This document shows, piece after piece, positions 1,426 to 23,254 of a DNA stretch of 24,188 nucleotides (position 1 is its first letter; each line of letters begins with the position of its first letter). Made by a program: the position numbers and the translations under genes. The stretch comes from a virus (lineage: Duplodnaviria; Heunggongvirae; Uroviricota; Caudoviricetes). Under the pieces are notes generated by a model, which was not told where the DNA came from, did no database searches, and was given only the letters and a program-made list of their open reading frames with translations. The DNA lies in the IMG/VR virus record IMGVR_UViG_2531839374_000011. The stretch is one strand, 5' to 3'.

Positions 1426-2194
1426 GGTAATGACTCCAACTTACTGATAGTGTTTTATGTTCAGATAATGCCCGATGACCTTGTCATGCAGCTCCACCGA
1501 TTTTGAGAACGACAGTGACTTCCGTCCCAGCCTTGCCAGATGTTGTCTCAGATTCAGATTATGTCGCTCAATGCGCTGAGTGTAACGCTTGCTGATAACG
1601 TGCAGCTTTCCCTTCAGGCGTGATTCATACAGCGGCCAGCCATCCGTCATCCATACCACGACCTCAAAGGCCGACAGCAGGCTCAGAAGACGCTCCAGTG
1701 TGGCCAGAGTGCGTTCACCGAAGACGTGCGCCACAACCGTCCTCCGTATCCTGTCATACGCGTAAAACAGCCAGCGCTGACGTGATTTAGCACCGACGTA
1801 GCCCCACTGTTCGTCCATTTCAGCGCAGACAATCACATCACTGCCCGGTTGTATGCGCGAGGTTACCGACTGCGGCCTGAGTTTTTTAAGTGACGTAAAA
1901 CCGTGTTCGAGGCCAACGCCCATAATGCGTGCACTGGCGCGACATCCGACGCCATTCATGGCCATATCAATGATTTTCTGGTGCGTACCGGGCTGAGAGG
2001 CGGTGTAAGTGAACTGTAGTTGCCATGTTTTACGGCAATGAGAGCAGAGATAGCGCTGATGTCCGGCAGTGCTTTTGCCGTTACGCACCACGCCTTCAGT
2101 AGCGGAGCAGGAAGGACATCTGATGGAAATGGAAGCCACGCAAGCACCTTAAAATCACCATCATACACTAAATCAGTAAGTTGGCAGCATTACC
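1426..2194 (-). mobile_element. IS1, 769 bp, with terminal inverted repeats GGTAATG(A/C)T(C/G)CCAACTTACTGAT
   Basis: Ends match the second IS1 at 20101-20868; internal proteins are identical; one extra base relative to copy 2. Confidence 0.95.
1441..2139 (-). CDS. IS1 transposase as a single fused InsAB' reading frame (232 aa)
   Basis: Continuous ORF ...[21 protein letters not shown]...; versus copy 2 the sequence GGCCTCGAACACGG carries one extra base (plus-strand C at about 1908) that places insA in the insB frame upstream of the A6C slippery run. Confidence 0.85.
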
Positions 2195-3536: not shown

Positions 3537-3608
3537 TGAAGTGGCACACTGAATTTGGCCACCTGAACAGAGGTGATATGCTCACCTCAGAACAACACAG
3601 GTGCTCCA

Positions 3609-4777
<1,169 letters not shown>

Positions 4778-4785
4778 CCACTTCA

Positions 4786-5425
4786 CGCCAGAGTTTTATT
4801 TGAGATCGCAAACAGGGAGGTGGCTTATTACAACATAAGGCAGGAGTTTAATTACTCAACTGAAATTACTGATTTCATGAAAGCGGTATATTTCCTGTAT
4901 CTCAATCGTCACGGTTACCGTGGTTTATGTCGCTATAACAAGAGCGGGCATTTCAACATTCCCTACGGCAATTATAAAAATCCGTATTTCCCTGAAAAAG
5001 AAATTCGCGCATTTGCAGAAAAAGCCCAGCGAGCAACGTTTATCTGCGCCAGCTTTGATGAAACGCTGGCGATGTTGAAGGCGGGGGATGTGGTGTATTG
5101 CGATCCACCGTATGACGGTACGTTTTCCGGCTATCACACTGATGGTTTCACTGAAGATGACCAGTATCACCTAGCATCCGTTCTTGAACATCGGTCATCA
5201 GAAGGACATCCGGTCATTGTTTCTAACAGTGACACATCCCTGATCCGTTCGCTGTATCGCAATTTTACTCACCACTATATCAAGGTAAAACGCAGCATCG
5301 GTGTGGCAGCTGGCGAGGGTAAATCAGCAACAGAAATCATTGCTGTTTCCGGGCCGCGCTGCTGGGTGGGATTTGATTATTCGCGTGGCGTGGATAGTTC
5401 TGCCGTGTACGGAGTACGTGCATGA
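4786..5425 (+). pseudogene. dam: Dam-like N6-adenine DNA methyltransferase lacking its N-terminal about 90 residues (removed by IS911)
   Basis: ...[22 protein letters not shown]...VYCDPPY... aligns with E. coli Dam from about residue 95 (FRRAVLFLYLNRYGYNGLCRYN...VYCDPPY); the frame is open back to the IS911 end at 4785 and the SAM-binding motif I region is absent. Confidence 0.85.
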
Positions 5426-7835
5426 GCCATGCCGATATGAACAACTGCTGCGGCTTTAACGAGGCTGCCGCAGCGTTCTCATGGAACAGCCCGAAAAAGG
5501 CCATTAACCCTTATCTGGACCCGGCGGAAGTTGCGCCGGTTTCTGCGCTTTCAAACCTGATCACTCTGTACGCTGCCGATAACGAGCAGGAACAGTTGCG
5601 CCGCGAGGCACTGAGTGATCAGGTCTGGGAGCGTTATTTTTTTATGAATCACGTGATCCTGTCCAGCACGAAATGGAGCAGGATAAGCTCATTAGCCGGG
5701 CAAAGCTGGCGCATGAGCAGCAGCGTTTTAATCCGGATATGGTCATTCTGGCGGACGTCAACGCCCAGCCTTCCCATATCAGCAAGCCGCTGATGCAACG
5801 TATTGAATACTTCAGCAGCCTGGGCAGGCCAAAGGCTTATTCCCGCTATTTACGTGAGACGATTAAGCCATGTCTGGAACGACTGGAGCATGTACGCGAC
5901 AGCCAGCTATCTGCATCTTTTCGTTTTATGGCAAGCCATGTAGGGCTGGACGGCCTGCTGATTCTGCCTGAAATGAGTCAGGATCAGGTGAAACGCCTGT
6001 CTACCCTTGTCGCTGCGCATATGAGCATGTGCCTTGATGCAGCTTGTGGTGATTTGTATGCCACCGATGACGTTAAGCCAGAAGAAATCCGCAAGACATG
6101 GGAAAAGGTGGCAGCGGAAACCCTGCGTCTGGATGTCATCCCGCCTGCGTTTGAGCAACTCCGTCGGAAAAGAAACCGCCGTAAACCCGTGCCCTATGAA
6201 CTCATTCCGGGTTCGCTGGCGCGTATGTTGTGCGCCGACTGGTGGTACCGGAAATTATGGAAAATGCGTTGCGAATGGCGGGAAGAGCAGTTGCGTGCTG
6301 TCTGCCTGGTCAGCAAAAAAGCATCTCCCTATGTCAGCTATGAAGCCGTGATGCATAAACGTGAGCAGCGCCGCAAGTCATTGGAGTTTTTCCGTTCTCA
6401 TGAACTGGTGAACGAAGAGGGCGACACGCTGGATATGGAAGACGTGGTAAACGCCAGCAGCAGCAACCCGGCGCACCGCCGCAATGAGATGATGGCCTGT
6501 GTTAAAGGTCTGGAGCTTATCGCGGAAATGCGCGGTGACTGCGCCGTTTTCTACACCATTACCTGTCCGTCACGTTTCCATTCCACGCTCAATAACGGCA
6601 GACCAAACCCAACCTGGACAAATGCGACGGTAAGACAAAGCAGCGATTATCTGGTCGGCATGTTTGCTGCATTTCGTAAGGCGATGCACAAAGCCGGGTT
6701 GCGCTGGTATGGCGTGCGGGTGGCTGAGCCGCATCATGACGGTACAGTTCACTGGCACCTGTTGTGTTTTATGCGCAAAAAAGACCGCCGCGCCATTACT
6801 GCATTGTTGCGTAAGTTTGCCATCCGTGAAGACCGCGAGGAACTGGGTAATAACACTGGTCCACGCTTTAAATCTGAGCTGATAAACCCGCGCAAAGGAA
6901 CGCCGACAAGCTACATCGCGAAATACATCAGTAAGAACATTGACGGGCGTGGTCTGGCTGGCGAGATCAGCAAGGAAACGGGTAAATCCCTGCGTGATAA
7001 CGCTGAATACGTTAATCCCTGGGCGTCTCTGCATCGTGTTCAGCAATTCCGCTTCTTTGGTATTCCAGGGCGTCAGGCTTACCGTGAACTGCGGTTGTTG
7101 GCTGGTCAGGCGGCAAGGCAGCAGGGTGACAAAAAAGCAGGTGCGCCGGTACTGGATAACCCGCGCCTTGATGCCATCCTGGCTGCTGCTGATGCTGGCT
7201 GTTTTGCCACCTACATTATGAGGCAGGGCGGCGTGCTGGTTCCTCGCAAATATCACTTGATCAGAACCGCTTATGAAATCAATGAAGAGCCGACCGCCTA
7301 TGGCGATCACGGTATTCGTATTTATGGCATCTGGTCACCCATTGCAGAAGGCAAGATCTGCACTCATGCAGTGAAGTGGAAAATGGTTCGTAAAGCCGTT
7401 GACGTTCAGGAGGCGGCAGCCGACCAGGGCGCTTGCGCCCCTTGGACTCGTGGCAATAACTGTCTCCTTGCTGAAAATTTGAACCAACAGGAGAAAGATA
7501 AATCAGCTGATGGGAACCCCAGAACGGACATTACCAGCATGGATGACAAGGAGTTGCACGATTACCTGCACAGTATGAGCAAAAAAGAGCGCCGGGAACT
7601 GGCAGCAAGGTTACGCCTGGTGAAACCGAAACGGCGTAAAGACTACAAACAGCGAATTACAGACCATCAGCGACTGCAGCTCGTGTATGAGCTGAAGTCC
7701 AGAGGATTTGATGGCAGCGAGAAAGAGGTCGATTTACTCCTTCGCGGAGGCAGTATTCCGTCAGGAGCAGGCCTGCGTATCTTCTATCGGAACCAGCGTT
7801 TGCAGGAAGATGATCAGTGGCGGAACCTGTATTAA
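5422..7835 (+). pseudogene. Replication initiation protein (P2 gpA / 186 RepA rolling-circle endonuclease family) with a -1 frameshift in a T7 run
   Basis: Hallmark [13 protein letters not shown] and [11 protein letters not shown] motifs; N-terminal segment (track ORF 5422..5793) and main body (5673..7835) are in different frames, and both would be joined if the T7 run at 5637-5643 were T8 ([16 protein letters not shown]); start codon overlaps the dam stop (ATGA at 5422-5425). Confidence 0.85.
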
Positions 7836-7988: not shown

Positions 7989-8177
7989 ATGCAGGACTAT
8001 TTTTTGGAGTCTTTGAAGCTCCAGCGCATTGATTTTTTTCTTAAGCTTGTAGCGGCTAGTGAGTGTAGTGATGAAGAGAAGGGGCTGGCTCTGCAGTGGG
8101 TTTCTGAATTGACTGATGAACTCATGGCAAAAATCAGAACCCACGAATACAACCGCTCAATGGATGTCATCAGCTGA
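7989..8177 (+). CDS. SOS-regulated small protein, candidate Tum-like antirepressor (62 aa)
   Basis: ATG at 7989 with AGGAGG RBS directly downstream of the LexA box; position equivalent to 186 tum at the right end of the early region; function inferred from context only. Confidence 0.45.
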   Translation: MQDYFLESLKLQRIDFFLKLVAASECSDEEKGLALQWVSELTDELMAKIRTHEYNRSMDVIS

Positions 8178-8187
8178 GGTGACTTTT

Positions 8188-8421
8188 ATGCGCATTGAAA
8201 TAATGATCGATAAAGAGCAGAAGATTAGCCAGTCTACCCTGGACGCTCTTGAATCCGAGCTTTACCGCAATCTGCGCCCTCTGTATCCCAAAACGGTAAT
8301 TCGTATCCGCAAAGGTAGCTCTAACGGTGTGGAACTTACTGGATTGCAACTGGACGAAGAAAGAAAACAAGTGATGAAAATTATGCAGAAGGTGTGGGAA
8401 GACGACAGCTGGCTGCATTAA
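8188..8421 (+). CDS. DinI-like protein (77 aa)
   Basis: MRIEIMIDKEQKISQSTLDALESELYRNLRPLYP...KIMQKVWEDDSWL resembles E. coli DinI (MRIEVTIAK...ILQETWESADDWF); GAGG RBS overlaps the stop of the upstream gene. Confidence 0.8.
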   Translation: MRIEIMIDKEQKISQSTLDALESELYRNLRPLYPKTVIRIRKGSSNGVELTGLQLDEERKQVMKIMQKVWEDDSWLH

Positions 8422-8556
8422 GAAACGTTGCTGGCGTCTGAACTAGCTTCTGGCGTCAGCAAGGTTGAACAACGAGCCCTTGCGAGGCGTTAGCTCTGTA
8501 GTGCATGTCTATGCCGCATGAGATCGCATGATCGTTTGAGGATCGTTTTTGCTAAG

Positions 8557-8581
8557 GCCCGCCAGAACTGGCGGGCTTTTG
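8557..8581 (+). terminator. Rho-independent terminator after the tum/dinI-like operon
   Basis: GC-rich hairpin GCCCGCC-AGAACT-GGCGGGC followed by TTTT. Confidence 0.6.
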
Positions 8582-8625
8582 CGTAGATCATGCAGGTGCA
8601 TGAAAACCTCTACATAAAGCGGGCA

Positions 8626-8644
8626 GGCGTGGCGGGGATACGAT
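8626..8644. other. cos-like motif GGCGTGGCGGGGATACGAT (candidate cohesive-end site)
   Basis: First 12 nt identical to the 19-nt cohesive end I recall for 186/P2 (GGCG(T/A)GGCGGGGAAAGCA-); location between the early/right-arm genes and the portal side. Confidence 0.3.
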
Positions 8645-8713
8645 TGCGCGCTAGGTATAAGTGTGTAAAATAATTCCAAAATAAATCATCACTAATGAAG
8701 TGAGAGGGTAATA

Positions 8714-10264
8714 ATGTTAGTCAAGAAAAATAAAAATTATAGTTTATATTTTTTAATTACAAATAATCAACAGATATCTGATTCTGGTAATTATATAAAA
8801 ATAGTCCCATCAAGAAGCGATTGGAATGATTTTGGATATTTGAGTAGAGTCGAAATATCTATTTTTAATAAAAAAGAGTGTAAGGATATAATTTCACTGA
8901 ATGGTTATATTGGTTTTTTGAATTCAGAGGAGGAACGAAATGGAAAAGCAGAACTGATAAGGCGAGTGAAGAAAAAGGAAGAATCTAATTTAAAGGATGA
9001 GGGGTTTAATGATTATTTTGTCATGCTTCAGGATATGAATAATTATCGAAGACTAGTAAGATTTTTTGGGGTGAATGAATCCAAATATATATTAAATTTC
9101 ATTAATGATGTTGTTTCTAAGAAAAGTGACGCTAGTGCAGAGAATTTGAGGAAAAAAGCAATCTCTTCTGATATCTTTAATAAATCTTTCATTAGAGAGT
9201 CTGAGTCGTATTTTACTTTCAAAAATGCAGGAACAGTTCTTTCCGGTATTCAATATGAGGAGTTGGGTAATTTATCACAGCACATCAAGATTAGCTATTC
9301 GAATAAAGTTAATGAAGAAGATGTATCTTATGTTTTTAATTTTGATCACGAGCATGATTTACCAAAAAGAATTTCCATAATTATAGGCGAGAATGGTGTA
9401 GGAAAAAGCCAAACGCTTAGAGAAATCGCATTGGCTGCGATTAAAGGAAAGGATAATTTGGTGGCTGTAGTTGATTCTAACGGTGTGAGCATTGAAGAAC
9501 GAATTCAAATTAGTAGGCTCATTGCTTTTTCTCCAACAAATGAAAGTAAGTGTTCATTTCCAACCGATAAAAGAATAAAATCATTGATATGGTACAAAAG
9601 ATTGACTTTAAATCGTGAATCAAAATCCAAATTAAACTTGAATGATTTAATAGTGCAACTAGCGAGGAGTAACGACGCTATCGGCTATAATCAAAGGTGG
9701 AATATATTTGTTGATGCACTGAGTGTTCTAAATAGTAACAACGATTTAGTAATCAAATGTGGCGGTGAAAATTCACCATTTGTTAAATTAAATGAGCTTA
9801 ATTCTCGAGGCGAAGAATCTAGACTATCATTATATTCTGAAATTATTCTCTCTGGCGAGCCTTTGAGGCTTATTGAAAATAAATGTTACCCTTTGAGTAG
9901 TGGGGAAATATCGTTTATTAAGTTTTGTGTACAAGTCTGTTTGTATATTGAGAATGGGACTCTTCTATTAATAGATGAGCCAGAAACACATCTCCATCCT
10001 TCATTTATTAATAAATTTATGGCATTGCTTGATAATTTATTAGAAAAGACAGGCTCTTCAGCTATCATAGCAACGCATTCGGTTTATCTTGTTCGGGAGG
10101 TTTTTAAGGAGCAAGTGACAATACTCAGAAGACGAGATGATGGGGTAATTGTTAGCGAAAAACCGAGATTGAGTACTTTTGGGGCGAATATAGGAAATAT
10201 CTCATATTTTGTTTTCGGTGAGAGTGAACCAACTCAAATTTTAAATAAAGTAAAAACAATATAA
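8714..10264 (+). CDS. ABC-type P-loop ATPase (516 aa) with about 220-aa uncharacterised N-terminal domain; candidate defence-system ATPase
   Basis: Walker A GENGVGKSQT (near residue 225), signature-like LSSGE, Walker B LLLIDEPETHLHP, H-loop ATHSVYL; strongly AT-rich coding sequence unlike flanking phage genes; GAGAGGG RBS. Confidence 0.75.
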   Translation: MLVKKNKNYSLYFLITNNQQISDSGNYIKIVPSRSDWNDFGYLSRVEISIFNKKECKDIISLNGYIGFLNSEEERNGKAELIRRVKKKEESNLKDEGFNDYFVMLQDMNNYRRLVRFFGVNESKYILNFINDVVSKKSDASAENLRKKAISSDIFNKSFIRESESYFTFKNAGTVLSGIQYEELGNLSQHIKISYSNKVNEEDVSYVFNFDHEHDLPKRISIIIGENGVGKSQTLREIALAAIKGKDNLVAVVDSNGVSIEERIQISRLIAFSPTNESKCSFPTDKRIKSLIWYKRLTLNRESKSKLNLNDLIVQLARSNDAIGYNQRWNIFVDALSVLNSNNDLVIKCGGENSPFVKLNELNSRGEESRLSLYSEIILSGEPLRLIENKCYPLSSGEISFIKFCVQVCLYIENGTLLLIDEPETHLHPSFINKFMALLDNLLEKTGSSAIIATHSVYLVREVFKEQVTILRRRDDGVIVSEKPRLSTFGANIGNISYFVFGESEPTQILNKVKTI

Positions 10265-10345
10265 TTGCAAAGAATATGTCTTGGGATGATGTTGAATCTA
10301 AATATAGCGAGGACTTATCACTTAATGTATTAACTGCGTTGAGAA

Positions 10346-11227
10346 ATGAAATGGGCAATTGAAATGAATAAATTAAAAAGACCTGTTTTTAAAGATTATT
10401 CTGCATTTAAAAAACTATCTGCAAATAAGAGATTAAAACATCATTCTGTTCTGAATGGACAGGATACATTTATACTTAATGCATATAGATCGTACATAAA
10501 GAATAAAGGGTATCTTAATGTCAATTCTTGTGGCGTATTGAGTAACAATATTGCTGAAGCTTTGAGATATTATTATAACAATCCCGCAAAGTGTTTATCT
10601 ATAATTGATGATATAAGAGCAGCTAATTCTAACTCTCTATGTCCAATGTGTGGTTCAATGCATAGCGGGACTTTGGATCATGTTTTACCCAAGGAAAACT
10701 ATCCAGAATTTTCTTTATTCACTAAGAATTTGGTTCCTGCTTGCAAATGTAATACTTTCAAAAGTACTACTATAGCTAATTCTGCAGGCCATCGGATGCT
10801 GCATCCATATTTTGATAATATATTAAAACAAAGATTAATATGTGCTAATTTTTCTAAATTAGGGCGAACACCTACAATTGATGTAAAAATCATAATTGAC
10901 CCAATGTCACCAGAATATAACAATGTTAAGTATCATCTTGATAATGTTGTTATCAAGAATAATATTAAGGGGTATTTGTCTGAACAATGGGAGTCGTTTT
11001 ACTTATATCCTGAGCTTGTTATTAGAGGACTGAATAAGAGTCTTTCTACTTATAGCGATGTATATGAGTTGTTGACTCGCGAGTTGTTGCTGTTGGATGA
11101 AAAACATAAAGGTAAAAATAATTGGAATTCGGTTTTTGTAGCTGGGTTAATTCGACCTGATGTGATTAGGTGGATACTCTGTGAATTACATTTAGGTAAC
11201 AGAAGTCCAGACGGTCGTCTCATATGA
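10346..11227 (+). CDS. HNH-motif nuclease (293 aa from ATG 10346; alternative start at 10364); candidate defence effector
   Basis: CPMCGSMHSGTLDHVLPKENYPEFSLFTKNLVPACKCN = CxxC...DH...N...CxC pattern typical of Zn-bound HNH/His-Me finger nucleases; same AT-rich composition and orientation as the upstream ATPase. Confidence 0.7.
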   Translation: MKWAIEMNKLKRPVFKDYSAFKKLSANKRLKHHSVLNGQDTFILNAYRSYIKNKGYLNVNSCGVLSNNIAEALRYYYNNPAKCLSIIDDIRAANSNSLCPMCGSMHSGTLDHVLPKENYPEFSLFTKNLVPACKCNTFKSTTIANSAGHRMLHPYFDNILKQRLICANFSKLGRTPTIDVKIIIDPMSPEYNNVKYHLDNVVIKNNIKGYLSEQWESFYLYPELVIRGLNKSLSTYSDVYELLTRELLLLDEKHKGKNNWNSVFVAGLIRPDVIRWILCELHLGNRSPDGRLI

Positions 11228-11237
11228 TTTTTTGCAT

Positions 11238-11263
11238 CTTCAGCGTGTATCTGCACGCTGAAG
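11238..11263. repeat. Perfect 10-bp inverted repeat hairpin (CTTCAGCGTG-TATCTG-CACGCTGAAG) just after the HNH gene
   Basis: Seen directly; T6 run precedes rather than follows it on the + strand, so it is not a canonical intrinsic terminator. Confidence 0.4.
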
Positions 11264-11333
11264 AAATTCATAAAAACTGCTGGCTATTAATAAATTTTTT
11301 AGCTGTGTTAAAGAACCTCATTTAGTGATTACG

Positions 11334-12367
11334 TTAAGTAGCTAGTTTATAACTATCAAATTTAACAATGTTCTCACTTACCAATTTATTTATTTCCATC
11401 ATTCTTTTTTGTAACGGTATTAACTCGTTACGTACAAACTCCAGGCTCGCCTTCTCCACATCCCCAAACCCCCGACATTATTAGGCATAATCCCCATCAT
11501 TTGCGGTGGCACACGATGCGCCGCCATCATGTCATCCCGGCTCACGTTCTTGATGTTCAGAAACTCATCCTTCGCCGCGACTTCTGACAACGGGATGATC
11601 TGAAGCCCGTCCTTTTTGCCGTTAGGCGAGTACATAAACAGATTGCGGAAGTTACCTGGTCCTTTGGCGCTTTTCATCGCATTGCGGAGGTTGTTCACAT
11701 CCTCCTGGTTTTGCGCGGCATCGGTCATGTACATGATGAAGCCTGCATGACTGCCGTTAATGTAATACTATCGGCGGAACAGCGTGGCGGACTCGTTGAG
11801 CAGGGCTGACGGAATGGCAGAAAGGTAACCTGGCAGGCCGTAGATCTCTTGGTTGATGTCCGGTTCCATCAGATGAAAGATGCTTCCTTTCGTGAACTGA
11901 TACGGCTGCGTGGTCATGCCGTATTGCACAAACCAGTAGGTATCCAGGTCTAATCCGCGTCGGGTGTATTTTGCCAGAGCAGGCTCAAGAGCGATGACCT
12001 CTCCGAACCGGTTTGTGCGTTTCTCCAGGTAAGCGTTACCAAATACCAGATAATCCTGCACAAAACGTGAAAAAGCCTGCTGGCTGAGCAGCGGGTGAGG
12101 GATGTAGGTACTGATCAGAATGTTGCATTTCACCGCAATTGGTGAACTGTGATGCACGGCGGCGCGGAAGGTGCGCGCCAGTCCGTCAAAACTCACTGGC
12201 GGCTCATACCAGCGATCTGTCTGTACGCATTCCACATAGTCCAGTAGTTCACGGCGGTCCAGAACCGGAACGGGATCGCCGAAGCTGAATGCTTCGGCTG
12301 AAGTCTGGTTTTTATGCTGGGTCTGTTTCGTCGCCGCAGCGCGGTTCTTCTTACTCTTTCCCATCAA
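11334..12367 (-). pseudogene. Portal protein (P2 gpQ family) with in-frame TAG at 11768-11770 and a -1 frameshift in a G4 run at 11463-11466
   Basis: Track ORFs 11768..12367 and 11420..11734 are in the same frame separated by TAG (...ATLFRR*YYINGSHAG...); after ...NNVGGLG the native-looking continuation GDVEKASLEFVRNELIPLQ... is in another frame reachable by adding one G; restored length would be about 344 aa. Confidence 0.8.
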
Positions 12368-20077: not shown

Positions 20078-20155
20078 TTTTTATTTGTTTTCAATTGAGT
20101 GGTAATGCTGCCAACTTACTGATTTAGTGTATGATGGTGATTTTAAGGTGCTTGC

Positions 20156-20431
20156 GTGGCTTCCATTTCCATCAGATGTCCTTCCTGCTCCGCTACTGAA
20201 GGCGTGGTGCGTAACGGCAAAAGCACTGCCGGACATCAGCGCTATCTCTGCTCTCATTGCCGTAAAACATGGCAACTACAGTTCACTTACACCGCCTCTC
20301 AGCCCGGTACGCACCAGAAAATCATTGATATGGCCATGAATGGCGTCGGATGTCGCGCCAGTGCACGCATTATGGGCGTTGGCCTCAACACGGTTTTACG
20401 TCACTTAAAAAACTCAGGCCGCAGTCGGTAA
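20156..20431 (+). CDS. insA: IS1 InsA (91 aa)
   Basis: [43 protein letters not shown]... ending ...[14 protein letters not shown]. Confidence 0.95.
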
Positions 20432-20853
20432 CCTCGCGCATACAACCGGGCAGTGATGTGATTGTCTGCGCTGAAATGGACGAACAGTGGGGCTACGTCG
20501 GTGCTAAATCACGTCAGCGCTGGCTGTTTTACGCGTATGACAGGATACGGAGGACGGTTGTGGCGCACGTCTTCGGTGAACGCACTCTGGCCACACTGGA
20601 GCGTCTTCTGAGCCTGCTGTCGGCCTTTGAGGTCGTGGTATGGATGACGGATGGCTGGCCGCTGTATGAATCACGCCTGAAGGGAAAGCTGCACGTTATC
20701 AGCAAGCGTTACACTCAGCGCATTGAGCGACATAATCTGAATCTGAGACAACATCTGGCAAGGCTGGGACGGAAGTCACTGTCGTTCTCAAAATCGGTGG
20801 AGCTGCATGACAAGGTCATCGGGCATTATCTGAACATAAAACACTATCAGTAA
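20350..20853 (+). CDS. insB: IS1 InsB frame (expressed as InsAB' by -1 frameshift at the A6C run 20407-20413)
   Basis: -1 frame overlapping insA; TTAAAAAAC slippery run present. Confidence 0.9.
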
Positions 20854-20868
20854 GTTGGAGTCATTACC

Positions 20869-21024
20869 TACACAGAAATGCCTGTGAAGGTCAGTGGCTT
20901 TAAACAGCCGCTAGATGATGCGGAATGGACCATTACGACTCTGACGCATACTGTCAGCCCGGATAACGGTTTTACGACCAGTCTGGAGCTTGAAGTGAGG
21001 ATTGATGATTTCGAAATGGAATGA
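20869..21024 (+). pseudogene. C-terminal fragment (about 50 codons) of tail protein D (P2 gpD family), abutting IS1
   Basis: Open frame from the IS1 end ...EMPVKVSGFKQPLDDAEWTITTLTHTVSPDNGFTTSLELEVRIDDFEME* with no start codon; sits just upstream of ogr as gpD does in P2. Confidence 0.55.
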
Positions 21025-21114
21025 TTCTTCGCAATGGAGAACTTTTAAGTTTGCAAAATGGAATAATGCGGTATCATTATTGTGAATTTAGCAAAAATGG
21101 GGAGAACTCGAAAA

Positions 21115-21333
21115 ATGATGATTTGCCCACTGTGTGGAAGTGCCGCCCATACTCGCAGCAGTTTTCAGGTATCTTCATTGACCAAAGAGCGTTACAACCA
21201 GTGCCAGAACATTAACTGCAGCCATACTTTTGTTACCCATGAAACTTTTGTTCGTTCGATTGCAACGCCAAAAGAGTCAAATCCGGTTCAGCCGCATCCA
21301 ATGAAATCAGGACAGGTGGCGCTCTCTCTTTGA
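21115..21333 (+). CDS. ogr: Ogr/Delta-family zinc-finger late-gene transcriptional activator (72 aa)
   Basis: MMICPLCGSAAHTRSS...KERYNQCQNINCSHTF... = CxxC...CxxxxC Zn-finger matching the recalled P2 Ogr (CPLCQHAAH...KERYHQCQNVNCSATF). Confidence 0.85.
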   Translation: MMICPLCGSAAHTRSSFQVSSLTKERYNQCQNINCSHTFVTHETFVRSIATPKESNPVQPHPMKSGQVALSL

Positions 21334-21412
21334 CGCTGCCGCCATTTTGTCGCCATCGTTAAAAAACAGTGCTTCTAACATCATGATTTTAAAAGGCATA
21401 AATTTCAGACAA

Positions 21413-21456
21413 CAAAAAACCCATCAACCTTGAACCGAAATGGCGGGGTTGATGGG
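21413..21456 (-). terminator. Rho-independent terminator downstream of ybjL
   Basis: Minus strand: 10-bp stem CCCATCAACC/GGTTGATGGG followed by a T6 run. Confidence 0.55.
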
Positions 21457-21568
21457 CTCCACAAAATGGGGACATCAAAGAAAAGCAGTGGCACTAATTA
21501 AGACTGATGCCCTGCGGAAAAGTTCTGCGGTTGTGCAAAAAAATTTCATTTTCAGGGCAACTTCAGTT

Positions 21569-23254
21569 TTATCCTAATCCTGGCCATACCATGACGATGA
21601 TTGTCCCTGCCAGCGTCAGCAGGACGTTGGCGATTGCGTAGGTGCCCGCATAGCCCAGCGCAGGGATGTTACTGCGAGCTGTATCACTGATGATCTCCAT
21701 TGCCGGCGCGCAGGTGCGTGCGCCCATCATTGCGCCGAACAACAGTGCGCGGTTCATTCGCAATACATAAGCACCGAACAAGAAACAGATAACCACGGGC
21801 ACAAGACTGACAATTAATCCGGCAATCAACATCTGACCGCCAATCGCGCCCAGGCCGTTATTAATACCGCTACCGGCGCTCAGACCAACGCCTGCCATAA
21901 ACACCATCAAGCCGAACTCTTTCACCATGCTTAATGCACCTTGCGGAATGTAACCGAAGGTCGGGTGGTTAGCACGCATAAAGCCCAGCATAATTCCGGC
22001 GAATAACAACCCGGCAGCGTTCCCCATGCCGAAACTGAATGTGCTGAACTGGAAGGTGATCATCCCGATCATCAGCCCAATAACAAAGAAGGCGCAAAAT
22101 GCCAGCAGGTCAGTGACCTGGCTGTGAATCGAGATAAAGCCGATGCGATCGGCGATGGTTTTTACGCGACGGGCATCACCGCTGACTTGTAAAACGTCAC
22201 CTTTGTTAAGCACGACGTTGTCATCTATCGGCATCTCAATCTGGCTACGAATGACGCGGTTAAGGAAGCAACCGTGATCGGTCAACTTCAGTTGTGCGAG
22301 ACGTTTACCTACAGCGTTATGGTTTTTAACGACCACTTCTTCAGTGACGATACGCATGTCGAGAAGGTCACGATCGAAAACTTCTTTACCGTTACGGAAG
22401 CTGGGATCGAGTCGGGCATGGGCGTCGGGATAGCCTACCAACGCTATTTCATCGCCCATTTGTAGCACGGCATCACCGTCTGGATTTGCCAGAATCCCGT
22501 TACGTCGAATACGTTCAATGTAGCAGCCGGTTTGTCGATAAATACCCAGTTCACGCAGATTTTTGCCGTCGGTCCAGGCCACCAGCTCCGGGCCGACGCG
22601 ATAGGCGCGGATCACCGGTAAATAAACCTTACGGTTGGCATCAGTGTCCAGGCCACGTTCGCGGGCGATTTGCTGGGCGCTGGTCTGTAAGTCCTGATGC
22701 TGCAATTTCGGCAAGTAACGCGCACCAACAATCAAACTCACCAGACCGATTAAATAGGTTAAGGCATACCCGAGGCTCAGATTATCCAGTGCCAGTGAGA
22801 GCTGCCTGCTTTCCATGCCGGAATGACGCAGTGTATCGCCAGCACCGACCAGAACCGGTGTCGACGTCATAGAGCCTGCTAACATACCGGCCGTCAGGCC
22901 AATATCCCAGCCAAACAGCTTACCTAACCCTAAGGCGATCACCAGCGCACTGCCAACCATCACCAGTGCTAACATTAGGTAATTTTTCCCATCGCGAAAA
23001 AAAATGGAAAAAAAGTTCGGTCCGGCTTCGACCCCGACGCAGAAAATAAACAGCATAAAGCCAAGATTAAGCGCATCGGTGTTAATGCTGAAATGTTGTT
23101 GGCCTAATAACAGCGATACGACTAAAACGCCAATGGAATTACCCAGTTGGATCGAACCAAGTCGTAACTTTCCGAGACATAGCCCAAGCGCGAGGACCAC
23201 AAATAATAACAGAATGTAATTCCCATTTAACAATTCGGCGACGTTTATATTCAC
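21569..23254 (-). CDS. ybjL: Putative transporter YbjL (AAE-family membrane protein with TrkA-C domains)
   Basis: 561 aa starting [33 protein letters not shown]..., recognised as E. coli YbjL. Confidence 0.85.

What the first reader, a model, noticed from the sequence alone, without database searches (positions are those of the whole stretch)
8650..11420. Compositional island boundaries coincide with the portal 3' end and a cos-like motif
GC content drops sharply at about 8650 and returns at about 11420. The right boundary falls inside the last roughly 30 codons of the portal gene, whose C-terminal coding sequence is itself AT-rich. This suggests cargo exchange at a recombination hotspot that overwrote the portal 3' end.
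Basis: partly seen in the sequence, partly recalled or inferred. Interest (0 to 1): 0.55.

Follow-up and report, generated by a model that had tools for sequence, protein, structure and literature searches.

The report
Swappable defence cassette beside phage cos
The AT-rich island is one of many interchangeable anti-phage gene cassettes at the already-described hotspot between the cos site and the portal gene of P2-like prophages; the one less familiar detail is that each cassette carries its own version of the last ~25-40 codons of the portal gene.

Summary
GC falls from 0.49 to 0.32 at about 8656 and returns to 0.55 at about 11439, which is 34 codons before the portal stop codon (11334-11336). 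The left edge lies 6-8 nt after the homolog of the P2 19-nt cohesive end (8626-8644).

The island holds two genes: a PtuA-like ABC ATPase and an HNH-like partner. Their best PADLOC matches are to the candidate system PDC-M01, so the pair is Septu-like. It sits in the published cos-proximal gpA-gpQ defence hotspot of P2-like phages (Rousset 2022).

In 133 related loci I found 85 different cargos at this same site.
- On the cos side, identity drops from about 1.0 to chance within 2 nt.
- On the portal side, identity decays over the last ~40 codons.
- The portal tail travels with the cargo. Same-cargo pairs are 98% identical in the tail, and different-cargo pairs are 61% identical, on backbones that are about 94% identical.
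- Tail GC tracks cargo GC (r=0.74).
- Empty sites, P2 included, have GC-rich tails.

So the portal end was not destroyed. It was replaced by a diverged, apparently functional homolog that belongs to the cassette.

This copy lies in an IS-riddled, decaying prophage whose portal, gpA and ATPase genes are all broken. The kind of system is already known, and the interest is modest.

The parts
8503..8650 (.). Conserved cos block, which is the right end of the virion DNA. It is the left homology arm of the cassette and contains a terminator-like hairpin at 8551-8582.
   Evidence: Identity among 46 cassette representatives is 0.8-1.0 in this block. It is 0.36-0.46 further left (8452-8500) and at chance to the right of 8652. 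The hairpin is inverted repeat I3.
8626..8644 (+). Homolog of the P2 19-nt cohesive end (cos cleavage region), GGCGTGGCGGGGATACGAT
   Evidence: The alignment to the P2 cosR/cosL junction has 47/59 identities over 8594-8652, E=2e-11. The stretch is 93% identical to the cos annotated as putative in Cartapus. There is a single match in the window and 0 in shuffles. It is nearly invariant across relatives.
8651..8652 (.). Left cassette boundary, which is very sharp
   Evidence: All-pairs identity per column is 1.00 at 8646-8649, then 0.87, 0.63 and 0.40 at 8650-8652, and 0.26-0.35 beyond.
8653..8713 (+). Cassette-specific AT-rich leader upstream of the ATPase gene. A promoter here is presumed, not shown.
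   Evidence: It has no homology to relatives with other cargo. The consensus promoter scan found no site in this stretch. Cargo genes run from cos toward the portal in 78 of 80 cassette types.
8714..10362 (+). Cargo gene 1: PtuA-like ABC/AAA_21 ATPase (PADLOC PDC-M01A). It is frameshifted in this window: a 1-nt deletion at 10251 brings a stop codon at 10262-10264, giving 516 aa instead of 549.
   Evidence: Pfam AAA_21 2e-16 and AAA_15 2e-9. PADLOC PDC-M01A 1e-54 and PtuA 2e-31. The intact 549-aa version is in L009. The deletion is listed.
10364..11227 (+). Cargo gene 2: HNH-like partner (PADLOC PDC-M01B), 287 aa
   Evidence: PADLOC PDC-M01B 1e-33. RefSeq names the 99%-identical protein 'HNH endonuclease'. 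The sequence contains CPMC...DH...CKCN. No Pfam, NCBIfam or PDB sequence hit.
11228..11333 (.). Cassette-specific intergenic spacer with a perfect 10-bp inverted repeat (11238-11247 / 11254-11263)
   Evidence: Read directly from the sequence. It has no homology to other cassettes. It did not match the intrinsic-terminator pattern.
11334..11459 (-). Cassette-linked portal C-terminal tail (VEKASLEFVRNELIPLQKRMMEINKLVSENIVKFDSYKLAT*). It is AT-rich from about 11439 to the stop codon at 11334-11336.
   Evidence: For the last 28 codons GC is 0.25 and GC3 is 0.21, against 0.52 GC in the portal core. Identity to other cassettes falls from above 0.9 to 0.6-0.7 (11445-11385) and then 0.3-0.55. The tail is 98% identical between same-cargo loci and 61% between different-cargo loci.
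11460..12367 (-). Conserved portal (gpQ) core, which is the right homology arm. It is a pseudogene in this window: TAG at 11768-11770 and a 1-nt deletion in the C-run at 11468.
   Evidence: Three-frame translation. Differences from the intact L009 copy. Pfam Phage_portal 7.5e-17 for the intact homolog.

Best explanation
Window 8652 to about 11440 is one allele of a swappable cassette in the cos-proximal (gpA-gpQ) hotspot of a P2-like prophage of the Fels-2/Elveevirus type. The cassette consists of an AT-rich leader, two defence-type genes (a PtuA-like ATPase and an HNH-like partner, Septu-like / PADLOC PDC-M01) transcribed toward the portal, a spacer, and the last ~25-40 codons of the convergent portal gene.

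Shown here: the left end abuts the cos cleavage region, with only about 6 conserved bp after the 19-nt cohesive end, so the cassette lies at the extreme left end of the packaged chromosome. The right end has no fixed edge. Sequence identity decays over the last ~40 portal codons.

Inferred: cassettes move between related phages by homologous recombination, with one arm in the conserved cos block (or the cos-cut DNA end itself) and the other in the conserved portal core. The portal's last codons touch the cargo, so recombination almost never separates them from it. They therefore share the cassette's deep genealogy and its AT-biased composition. Purifying selection keeps the structural residues of the tail.

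In this particular window the prophage is a decaying remnant, so neither the portal nor the ATPase is likely to be functional.
For: The hotspot and the gene order cos-cargo-Q are seen in annotated relatives that carry different cargo. There are 85 cargo clusters in 133 loci, with cos-Q spacing from 140 to 3491 bp. The left boundary is sharp and sits at the same nucleotide in 46 cassette types. The right boundary is graded, with change points mostly at 11383-11409 and some at 11443-11454.

Tail-cargo linkage: no tail variant is shared between cargo clusters. Tail identity is 0.981 for same-cargo pairs and 0.606 for different-cargo pairs, and 0 of 3184 different-cargo pairs reach 0.9. The 600-nt portal core is 0.959 and 0.935 identical for the same two groups.

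Composition: tail GC against cargo GC gives r=0.74 over 85 clusters, and r=0.57 within close backbones (bootstrap CI 0.31-0.78). Core GC correlates only weakly, r=0.22 over all clusters and r=0.15 (not significant) within close backbones. GC3 steps from about 0.65 to about 0.35 six codons after VEKAS, and only where the site is occupied. P2 and the empty sites have GC-rich tails.

Direct recombinant tracts: in L097/L157 mismatches occur about every 15 nt in the portal up to -132 from the stop, then 0 in the tail and 7 in 1879 nt of cargo, and they resume just past cos. Similar tracts are seen in L095/L110, L159/L143 and L104/L158.

Defence-type cargo. No flanking direct repeats and no mobility genes. 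The same cassette and tail are present in three complete E. coli genomes at 99.4-99.7% identity, while 1159 of 5426 genomes match only the flanks. The hotspot, and a cos-end recombination idea, are published (Rousset et al. 2022, PMC9122126; Moura de Sousa et al. 2026, PMC13586616).
Against: No experiment shows that this ATPase/HNH pair defends against phage. The match is to a PADLOC candidate family, and the curated NCBIfam PtuA model is far below its cutoff (39.9 bits against 500).

The recombination mechanism is inferred from sequence patterns. The four recombinant pairs were chosen because their cores differ, which biases the apparent crossover points toward the tail.

The sharp cos edge could reflect only purifying selection on cos and say nothing about DNA-end-driven recombination.

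Linkage alone does not explain why the tails are AT-rich. The empty-site comparison rests on only 5 clusters plus P2.
Confidence: 0.85

Rival explanations
1. The island is a recent insertion of foreign low-GC DNA into this particular prophage, by illegitimate recombination, transposition or site-specific integration, and it happened to clip the portal 3' end.
For: The composition contrast is strong (0.317 against about 0.52). The window holds several IS elements, so insertions do occur in this genome.
Against: The island edges have no direct repeats, and the island encodes no transposase or integrase. Both edges coincide with the boundaries used by 85 other cargos. The clipped portal end is a full-length, conserved-motif portal tail, not foreign sequence. 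The same cassette and tail have co-diverged with the backbone in Scandinavium, at about 79% against about 80% identity.
Confidence: 0.04
2. The portal tail is functionally coupled to its cargo. For example, it might act as a self-immunity determinant against a defence system that senses portal or packaging proteins, or it might carry cassette-specific regulatory sequence. Selection, and not mere adjacency, would then keep each tail with its cargo.
For: Tail-cargo pairing is strictly one-to-one in 133 loci. Tails are far more diverged than the rest of the portal.
Against: Adjacency alone predicts this linkage. Divergence decays gradually with distance from the cargo. Tail composition and amino-acid usage simply follow cargo AT content (FYMINK fraction r=-0.52), which is what neutral hitchhiking would give. 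The conserved residues are the same in every cassette. Very different defence types all show the effect.
Confidence: 0.07
3. The AT-rich portal tail shows that each cassette was imported, together with the adjacent portal end, from P2-like phages of low-GC hosts. On this reading there is no long-lived polymorphism within enterobacterial phages.
For: Tail GC matches cargo GC. The tails are as diverged as portals from distant genera.
Against: About 80 different cassettes would each need a separate low-GC phage donor. In the loci sampled, the same cassettes occur only in Enterobacterales hosts of 50-57% GC, and they stay AT-rich after about 20% divergence. Tail divergence from the empty-site consensus forms a continuum (r=-0.75 with tail GC), not discrete donor classes.
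Confidence: 0.1

Closest known systems
P2-like phage cos-proximal defence hotspot between gpA and gpQ (Rousset et al. 2022, Cell Host Microbe, PMC9122126; Odegrip et al. 2006; Moura de Sousa et al. 2026, NAR, PMC13586616)
   Same: The position is the same: between the replication gene A and the portal gene Q, next to cos, in a P2-like prophage. Cargo is hypervariable on near-identical backbones. The content is defence-type. Exchange is thought to occur by recombination involving cos.
   Different: The papers I could read define the hotspot at gene level. The text I searched does not state that the swapped module includes the portal's last codons, that the left edge is about 6 bp from the cohesive end, or that tail composition tracks the cargo. 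I could not read Odegrip 2006.
P2 tin/old locus (phage P2, NC_001895)
   Same: It is the prototype cargo of the same hotspot. It also includes an AAA-type ATPase nuclease (Old) used for excluding other phages.
   Different: In P2 the cargo lies on the other side of cos, in the order orf91-tin-old-cos, and the cos-Q interval is empty (167 bp, GC 0.60) with a GC-rich portal tail. In the window the tin/old-side sub-site is nearly empty (83 bp, 8420-8502) and the cos-Q side is occupied.
Septu defence system (PtuA ATPase + PtuB HNH nuclease; Doron et al. 2018) and PADLOC candidate system PDC-M01
   Same: It is a two-gene operon of an ABC-type ATPase (AAA_15/AAA_21) followed by an HNH-like protein. 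PADLOC PDC-M01A/B are the best hits and PtuA models also hit at 2e-31.
   Different: It scores far below the curated NCBIfam PtuA cutoff (39.9 against 500 bits). It has no sequence-detectable relative among solved PtuA/PtuB structures. Pfam detects no HNH domain in the partner. Activity is untested.

Membership tests
P2-like cos-proximal (gpA-gpQ) defence hotspot cassette | Lies between the replication gene A and the portal gene Q, adjacent to cos, in a P2-like prophage | tested here: met
   gpA is at 5673-7835, DinI at 8116-8421, cos at 8626-8644, cargo at 8714-11227 and the portal at 11334-12367 on the minus strand. The order is identical in annotated relatives.
P2-like cos-proximal (gpA-gpQ) defence hotspot cassette | The locus is hypervariable among phages with near-identical core genes | tested here: met
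   There are 85 cargo clusters in 133 loci, 48 of them on backbones whose portal is at least 92% identical. Only 3 of 1159 E. coli genomes that match the flanks carry this cargo.
P2-like cos-proximal (gpA-gpQ) defence hotspot cassette | The cargo confers anti-phage defence | not testable with these tools
   There is only family-level similarity to PADLOC PDC-M01 and PtuA. In this window the ATPase gene is frameshifted.
Septu (PtuA/PtuB) | PtuA: ATPase of the AAA_15/AAA_21 (ABC-like) type | tested here: met
   Pfam AAA_21 2.1e-16 and AAA_15 2.4e-9. PADLOC PtuA models reach 2e-31.
Septu (PtuA/PtuB) | PtuB: HNH nuclease encoded immediately downstream | tested here: inconclusive
   The gene is adjacent, with a 1-nt gap in the intact copy. 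The sequence contains CxxC...DH...CxCN, and RefSeq names it HNH endonuclease. Pfam and NCBIfam detect no HNH domain, and only PDC-M01B models appear in the PADLOC top hits.
Septu (PtuA/PtuB) | Reaches the curated family threshold for PtuA | tested here: not met
   NCBIfam NF041760 PtuA scores 39.9 bits against a cutoff of 500. The best PADLOC family is PDC-M01A, not PtuA.
P2-type cos site | Sequence homologous to the 19-nt cohesive end and flanking core of P2 | tested here: met
   47/59 identities to the P2 cos junction, E=2e-11, and 14/19 within the cohesive end itself. The stretch is 93% identical to the putative cos of Cartapus and nearly invariant in 46 relatives.
P2-type cos site | Cleaved by terminase to give cohesive ends | not testable with these tools
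   This needs virion DNA end mapping. This prophage copy has a broken portal gene and has lost its late-gene region beyond about 20100, so it cannot make particles.
Integrative or transposable genomic islet | Flanking direct repeats (att or target-site duplication) and a recombinase or transposase gene | tested here: not met
   No direct repeat pairs the two edges. The only ORFs of 60 aa or more with family matches in the island are the ATPase and the HNH-like gene.

The most novel reading that the evidence does not exclude
The last ~25-40 codons of an essential structural gene, the portal, may behave as part of a hypervariable defence locus. Each of 80 or more cassettes keeps its own deeply diverged, AT-shifted portal tail. 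Two readings remain open: (a) a footprint of long-term diversifying or balancing selection on cassette alleles, with local recombination suppression driving AT drift into the coding end, or (b) real functional coupling between the portal C-terminus and the resident defence system. Either would give a nucleotide-level handle on how cos-proximal hotspots exchange cargo: one crossover in the portal plus the cos end.
Probability: 0.2. Interest if true: 0.55.

Novelty: already known. Interest (0 to 1): 0.33.

Why it matters
The island itself is a textbook example of the P2-like defence hotspot, so it adds little on its own. The useful increment is the base-pair definition of the exchangeable module: it runs from about 6 bp after the cos cohesive end to inside the portal's last codons, with cassette-specific portal tails. 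That definition has three uses. It gives a simple rule for delimiting cassettes, since cos plus the VEKAS motif of gpQ can serve as anchors. It is consistent with the published idea that the cos end plus one homologous crossover drives swapping. It also shows that an essential gene's terminus can be carried along with, and compositionally reshaped by, a neighbouring hypervariable locus. Anyone engineering P2-like phages or mining these hotspots should keep the cognate portal tail in mind.

Tried and rejected
- **Flanking repeats or mobility genes.** I looked for direct or inverted repeats and mobility genes that would mark a site-specific or transposon insertion. None were found at the edges.
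- **Promoter and terminator scan of the island.** Counts did not differ from shuffles. There was no hit in the leader 8653-8713 and none at the 11238-11263 inverted repeat, so expression signals remain unassigned.
- **PDB sequence searches.** The ATPase gave only generic UvrA/ABC hits. The HNH-like protein and the portal gave nothing, so the tail could not be mapped onto a solved portal.
- **NCBIfam and Pfam for the HNH-like protein.** No family was detected.
- **Odegrip et al. 2006.** The paper is not held in the library, and one literature search failed on a term that was too short.
- **Structure prediction of the portal.** I considered it and did not run it. The window's own copy is interrupted, and building an admissible alignment would have needed a costly database search for a side issue.
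- **Assembly artefact.** Rejected, because three complete E. coli genomes carry the same island and tail at 99.4-99.7% identity.
- **Sequencing error as the cause of the portal lesions.** I cannot fully exclude this for the three homopolymer deletions. The nonsense substitution and the three IS insertions argue for real decay.
Full report
**1. Observation**

The window is a P2-like prophage of the Fels-2/Elveevirus type. It is 99.8% identical over 15.3 kb to a prophage of E. coli UPEC-245U.

GC in 300-nt windows drops from 0.50 to 0.27-0.36 between about 8650 and 11400. Maximum-likelihood segmentation puts the change points at 8656 and 11439, with GC 0.492 on the left, 0.317 in the island and 0.554 on the right. 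No other stretch of the same size in the window goes below 0.444.

The portal ORF on the minus strand has its stop codon at 11334-11336.

The cos-like motif is also real. Window 8594-8652 aligns to the P2 cosR/cosL junction at 47/59 identities, E=2e-11. This places the homolog of the 19-nt cohesive end at 8626-8644. The same 59 nt are 93% identical to the cos annotated as putative in phage Cartapus. The motif is unique in the window.

**2. Content of the island**

There are two plus-strand genes.
- The first (8714-10264 as it stands) is an ABC-type ATPase. Its matches are Pfam AAA_21 2e-16, PADLOC PDC-M01A 1e-54 and PtuA 2e-31.
- The second (10364-11227) matches PADLOC PDC-M01B at 1e-33. It carries a CxxC...DH...CxCN pattern, and RefSeq names it HNH endonuclease. 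Pfam, NCBIfam and PDB sequence searches do not detect it.

The pair is Septu-like but does not pass the curated PtuA threshold (39.9 against 500 bits). I file it as a PDC-M01-type candidate defence system and not as Septu proper.

**3. The locus in relatives**

Annotated relatives have the same order: gpA, small ORF, DinI, cos, cargo, then portal Q and terminase P on the opposite strand. Their cargo differs and includes a retron St85 effector plus RT, AIPR/Abi, DUF4145 and Hypoth_Ymh.

This is the published cos-proximal gpA-gpQ defence hotspot of P2-like phages (Rousset et al. 2022, PMC9122126; Moura de Sousa et al. 2026, PMC13586616; iLund4u preprint).

One refinement concerns which side of cos is used. 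In P2 itself the cargo (tin, old) lies on the other side of cos, and the cos-Q interval is empty at 167 bp. In the window the tin/old-side sub-site (8420-8502) is nearly empty and the cos-Q side is filled. Among 89 relatives the DinI-to-cos spacing ranges from about 0 to 4384 bp. There are therefore two sub-hotspots flanking a conserved cos block of about 150 bp (8503-8650).

**4. Exact boundaries across many cassettes**

I fetched 160 loci that encode close portal relatives. I located the portal stop codon and the cos core in 142 of them. Of these, 133 passed filtering, and they carry 85 distinct cargos with cos-Q spacing from 140 to 3491 bp.
- **cos side.** All-pairs identity per column is 1.00 up to 8649, then 0.87, 0.63 and 0.40 at 8650-8652, and at chance beyond. 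The edge is very sharp and lies 6-8 nt after the cohesive end.
- **Portal side.** There is no sharp edge. Identity is 0.9-0.97 down to about 11460, 0.6-0.7 from 11445 to 11385, 0.3-0.55 to the stop codon, and at chance after it. Change points against the window cluster at 11383-11409, with a few at 11443-11454.

**5. The portal tail belongs to the cassette**

On backbones whose portal is at least 92% identical, I compared the last 24 aligned codons.
- Loci with the same cargo are 98.1% identical in this tail.
- Loci with different cargo are 60.6% identical, with a maximum of 81.9%. None of 3184 such pairs reaches 90%.
- The preceding 600 nt of portal are 95.9% and 93.5% identical for the same two groups.
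- No tail peptide is shared by two cargo clusters.

The tails remain portal tails. Positions P, L, Q, E, N, W, I, F and Y are nearly invariant across all 85 clusters.

Recent exchanges can be seen directly. In L097 vs L157, mismatches occur about every 15 nt in the portal up to 132 nt before the stop. There are then none in the tail and 7 in 1879 nt of cargo, and they resume just past cos. Three other pairs behave in the same way. These pairs were chosen for having divergent cores, so the apparent crossover positions are biased toward the tail.

**6. Composition**

Tail GC follows cargo GC.
- Over 85 clusters r=0.74. Within close backbones r=0.57, with a bootstrap CI of 0.31-0.78.
- Portal core GC correlates only weakly: r=0.22 overall and r=0.15 (not significant) within close backbones.
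- GC3 steps from about 0.65 to about 0.35 six codons after the V of VEKAS, and only in occupied sites.
- Amino-acid usage shifts toward residues encoded by AT-rich codons (FYMINK r=-0.52).
- Empty sites have GC-rich tails. Five clusters average 0.54. P2 has 0.53 with GC3 0.77, against 0.25 and 0.21 for the window.
- The association is old. A Scandinavium prophage (L013) has the same cassette at 79% identity, still with GC 0.335. Its tail is 72% identical and its portal core 80.5% identical.

**7. Mechanism (inferred)**

The cassette occupies the extreme left end of the packaged chromosome. Exchange needs homology in the cos block, or the cos-cut end as Rousset et al. proposed, together with a crossover in the portal. 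The nearest usable homology to the cargo is the portal segment just upstream of the tail.

Because the tail touches the cargo, it shares the cargo's deep genealogy. This is the kind of linked-diversity peak expected next to a locus kept polymorphic by selection.

Linkage alone does not explain why the tail is AT-rich. Candidate explanations are AT-biased mutation with little homogenising recombination, or import from AT-rich donors. I could not discriminate between them.

Functional coupling of tail and cargo is possible but is not required by any of the data.

**8. State of this copy**

Compared with the intact E. coli copy, the window has the following lesions.
- 1-nt homopolymer deletions in gpA (5643), the ATPase gene (10251) and the portal (11468).
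- A T-to-A change that creates TAG at 11768-11770.
- A V-to-E change in the tail at 11440.

The prophage also carries three IS elements.
- An IS1 at 1426-2194 with a 9-bp target duplication.
- An IS3-family element at about 3537-4782 that replaces part of the early region and truncates the Dam methylase gene.
- A second IS1 at about 20100-20870, after which a chromosomal ybjL-like permease follows.

The prophage is therefore a decaying remnant. The portal lesions have nothing to do with the cassette boundary.

**9. Verdict**

The portal end was exchanged for a homologous tail and was not destroyed. The event is an old allelic association at a known hotspot, not a recent insertion.

The kind of system is already known. 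In the literature I could read, I did not find the nucleotide-level description, including the cassette-linked and compositionally matched portal tails. That part is a modest increment.

Noticed in passing
window 11460-12367 (-), 5643, 10251: Compared with the 99.8% identical intact prophage of E. coli UPEC-245U, the window has an in-frame TAG in the portal (11768-11770). It also has 1-nt homopolymer deletions in the portal (11468), gpA (5643) and the defence ATPase gene (10251), and a V-to-E change in the portal tail (11440). This could be real pseudogenisation or homopolymer sequencing error.
   Followed up: partly
window 1426-2194: An IS1 copy (InsA/InsB domains) is inserted between the integrase and the next gene. 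The 9 bp at L009 5006-5014 are present on both sides, as expected for an IS1 target duplication.
   Followed up: partly
window 3537-4782: An IS3-family element (orfA 3573-3911, rve-domain orfB 3938-4777) replaces about 1.8 kb of the early region found in the intact relative (CII, Fil, DUF5347, DUF2732, TraR). Only the C-terminal part of the Dam methylase gene remains (4820-5425).
   Followed up: partly
window 20100-23254: Homology to the phage ends at 20100 at a second IS1 (transposase 20350-20853). It is followed by a chromosomal Asp-Al_Ex/TrkA_C permease (ybjL-like, 21569-23254, minus strand). The late-gene region beyond about 20100 appears to have been deleted.
   Followed up: partly
window 8420-8502: There is a second variable sub-site between the DinI stop codon and the conserved cos block. 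It is 83 bp here, about 845 bp with a 225-aa hypothetical gene in Fels-2 and Klebsiella phages, and 0-4384 bp across 89 relatives. This corresponds to the side of cos where P2 carries tin/old.
   Followed up: partly
window 8551-8582: A GC-rich hairpin followed by a T-run (GCCCGCCAG-AA-CTGGCGGGC-TTTT) lies inside the conserved cos block. It looks like an intrinsic terminator for the DinI/early transcript and is conserved in relatives.
   Followed up: no
L017, L034, L038 (Enterobacter, Citrobacter, Pantoea), about 140-150 bp after the portal stop: An 'empty' cos-Q allele (spacer GC 0.62-0.64) has an identical portal tail peptide (…EPYTLGLTEDKRND) in three genera whose portal cores differ. This suggests that the empty state is itself an exchangeable allele.
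   Followed up: no
80 cassette clusters in L001-L169: The longest cargo ORF is convergent with the portal, transcribed from cos toward Q, in 78 of 80 cassette types. That is a strong orientation bias with no explanation so far.
   Followed up: no
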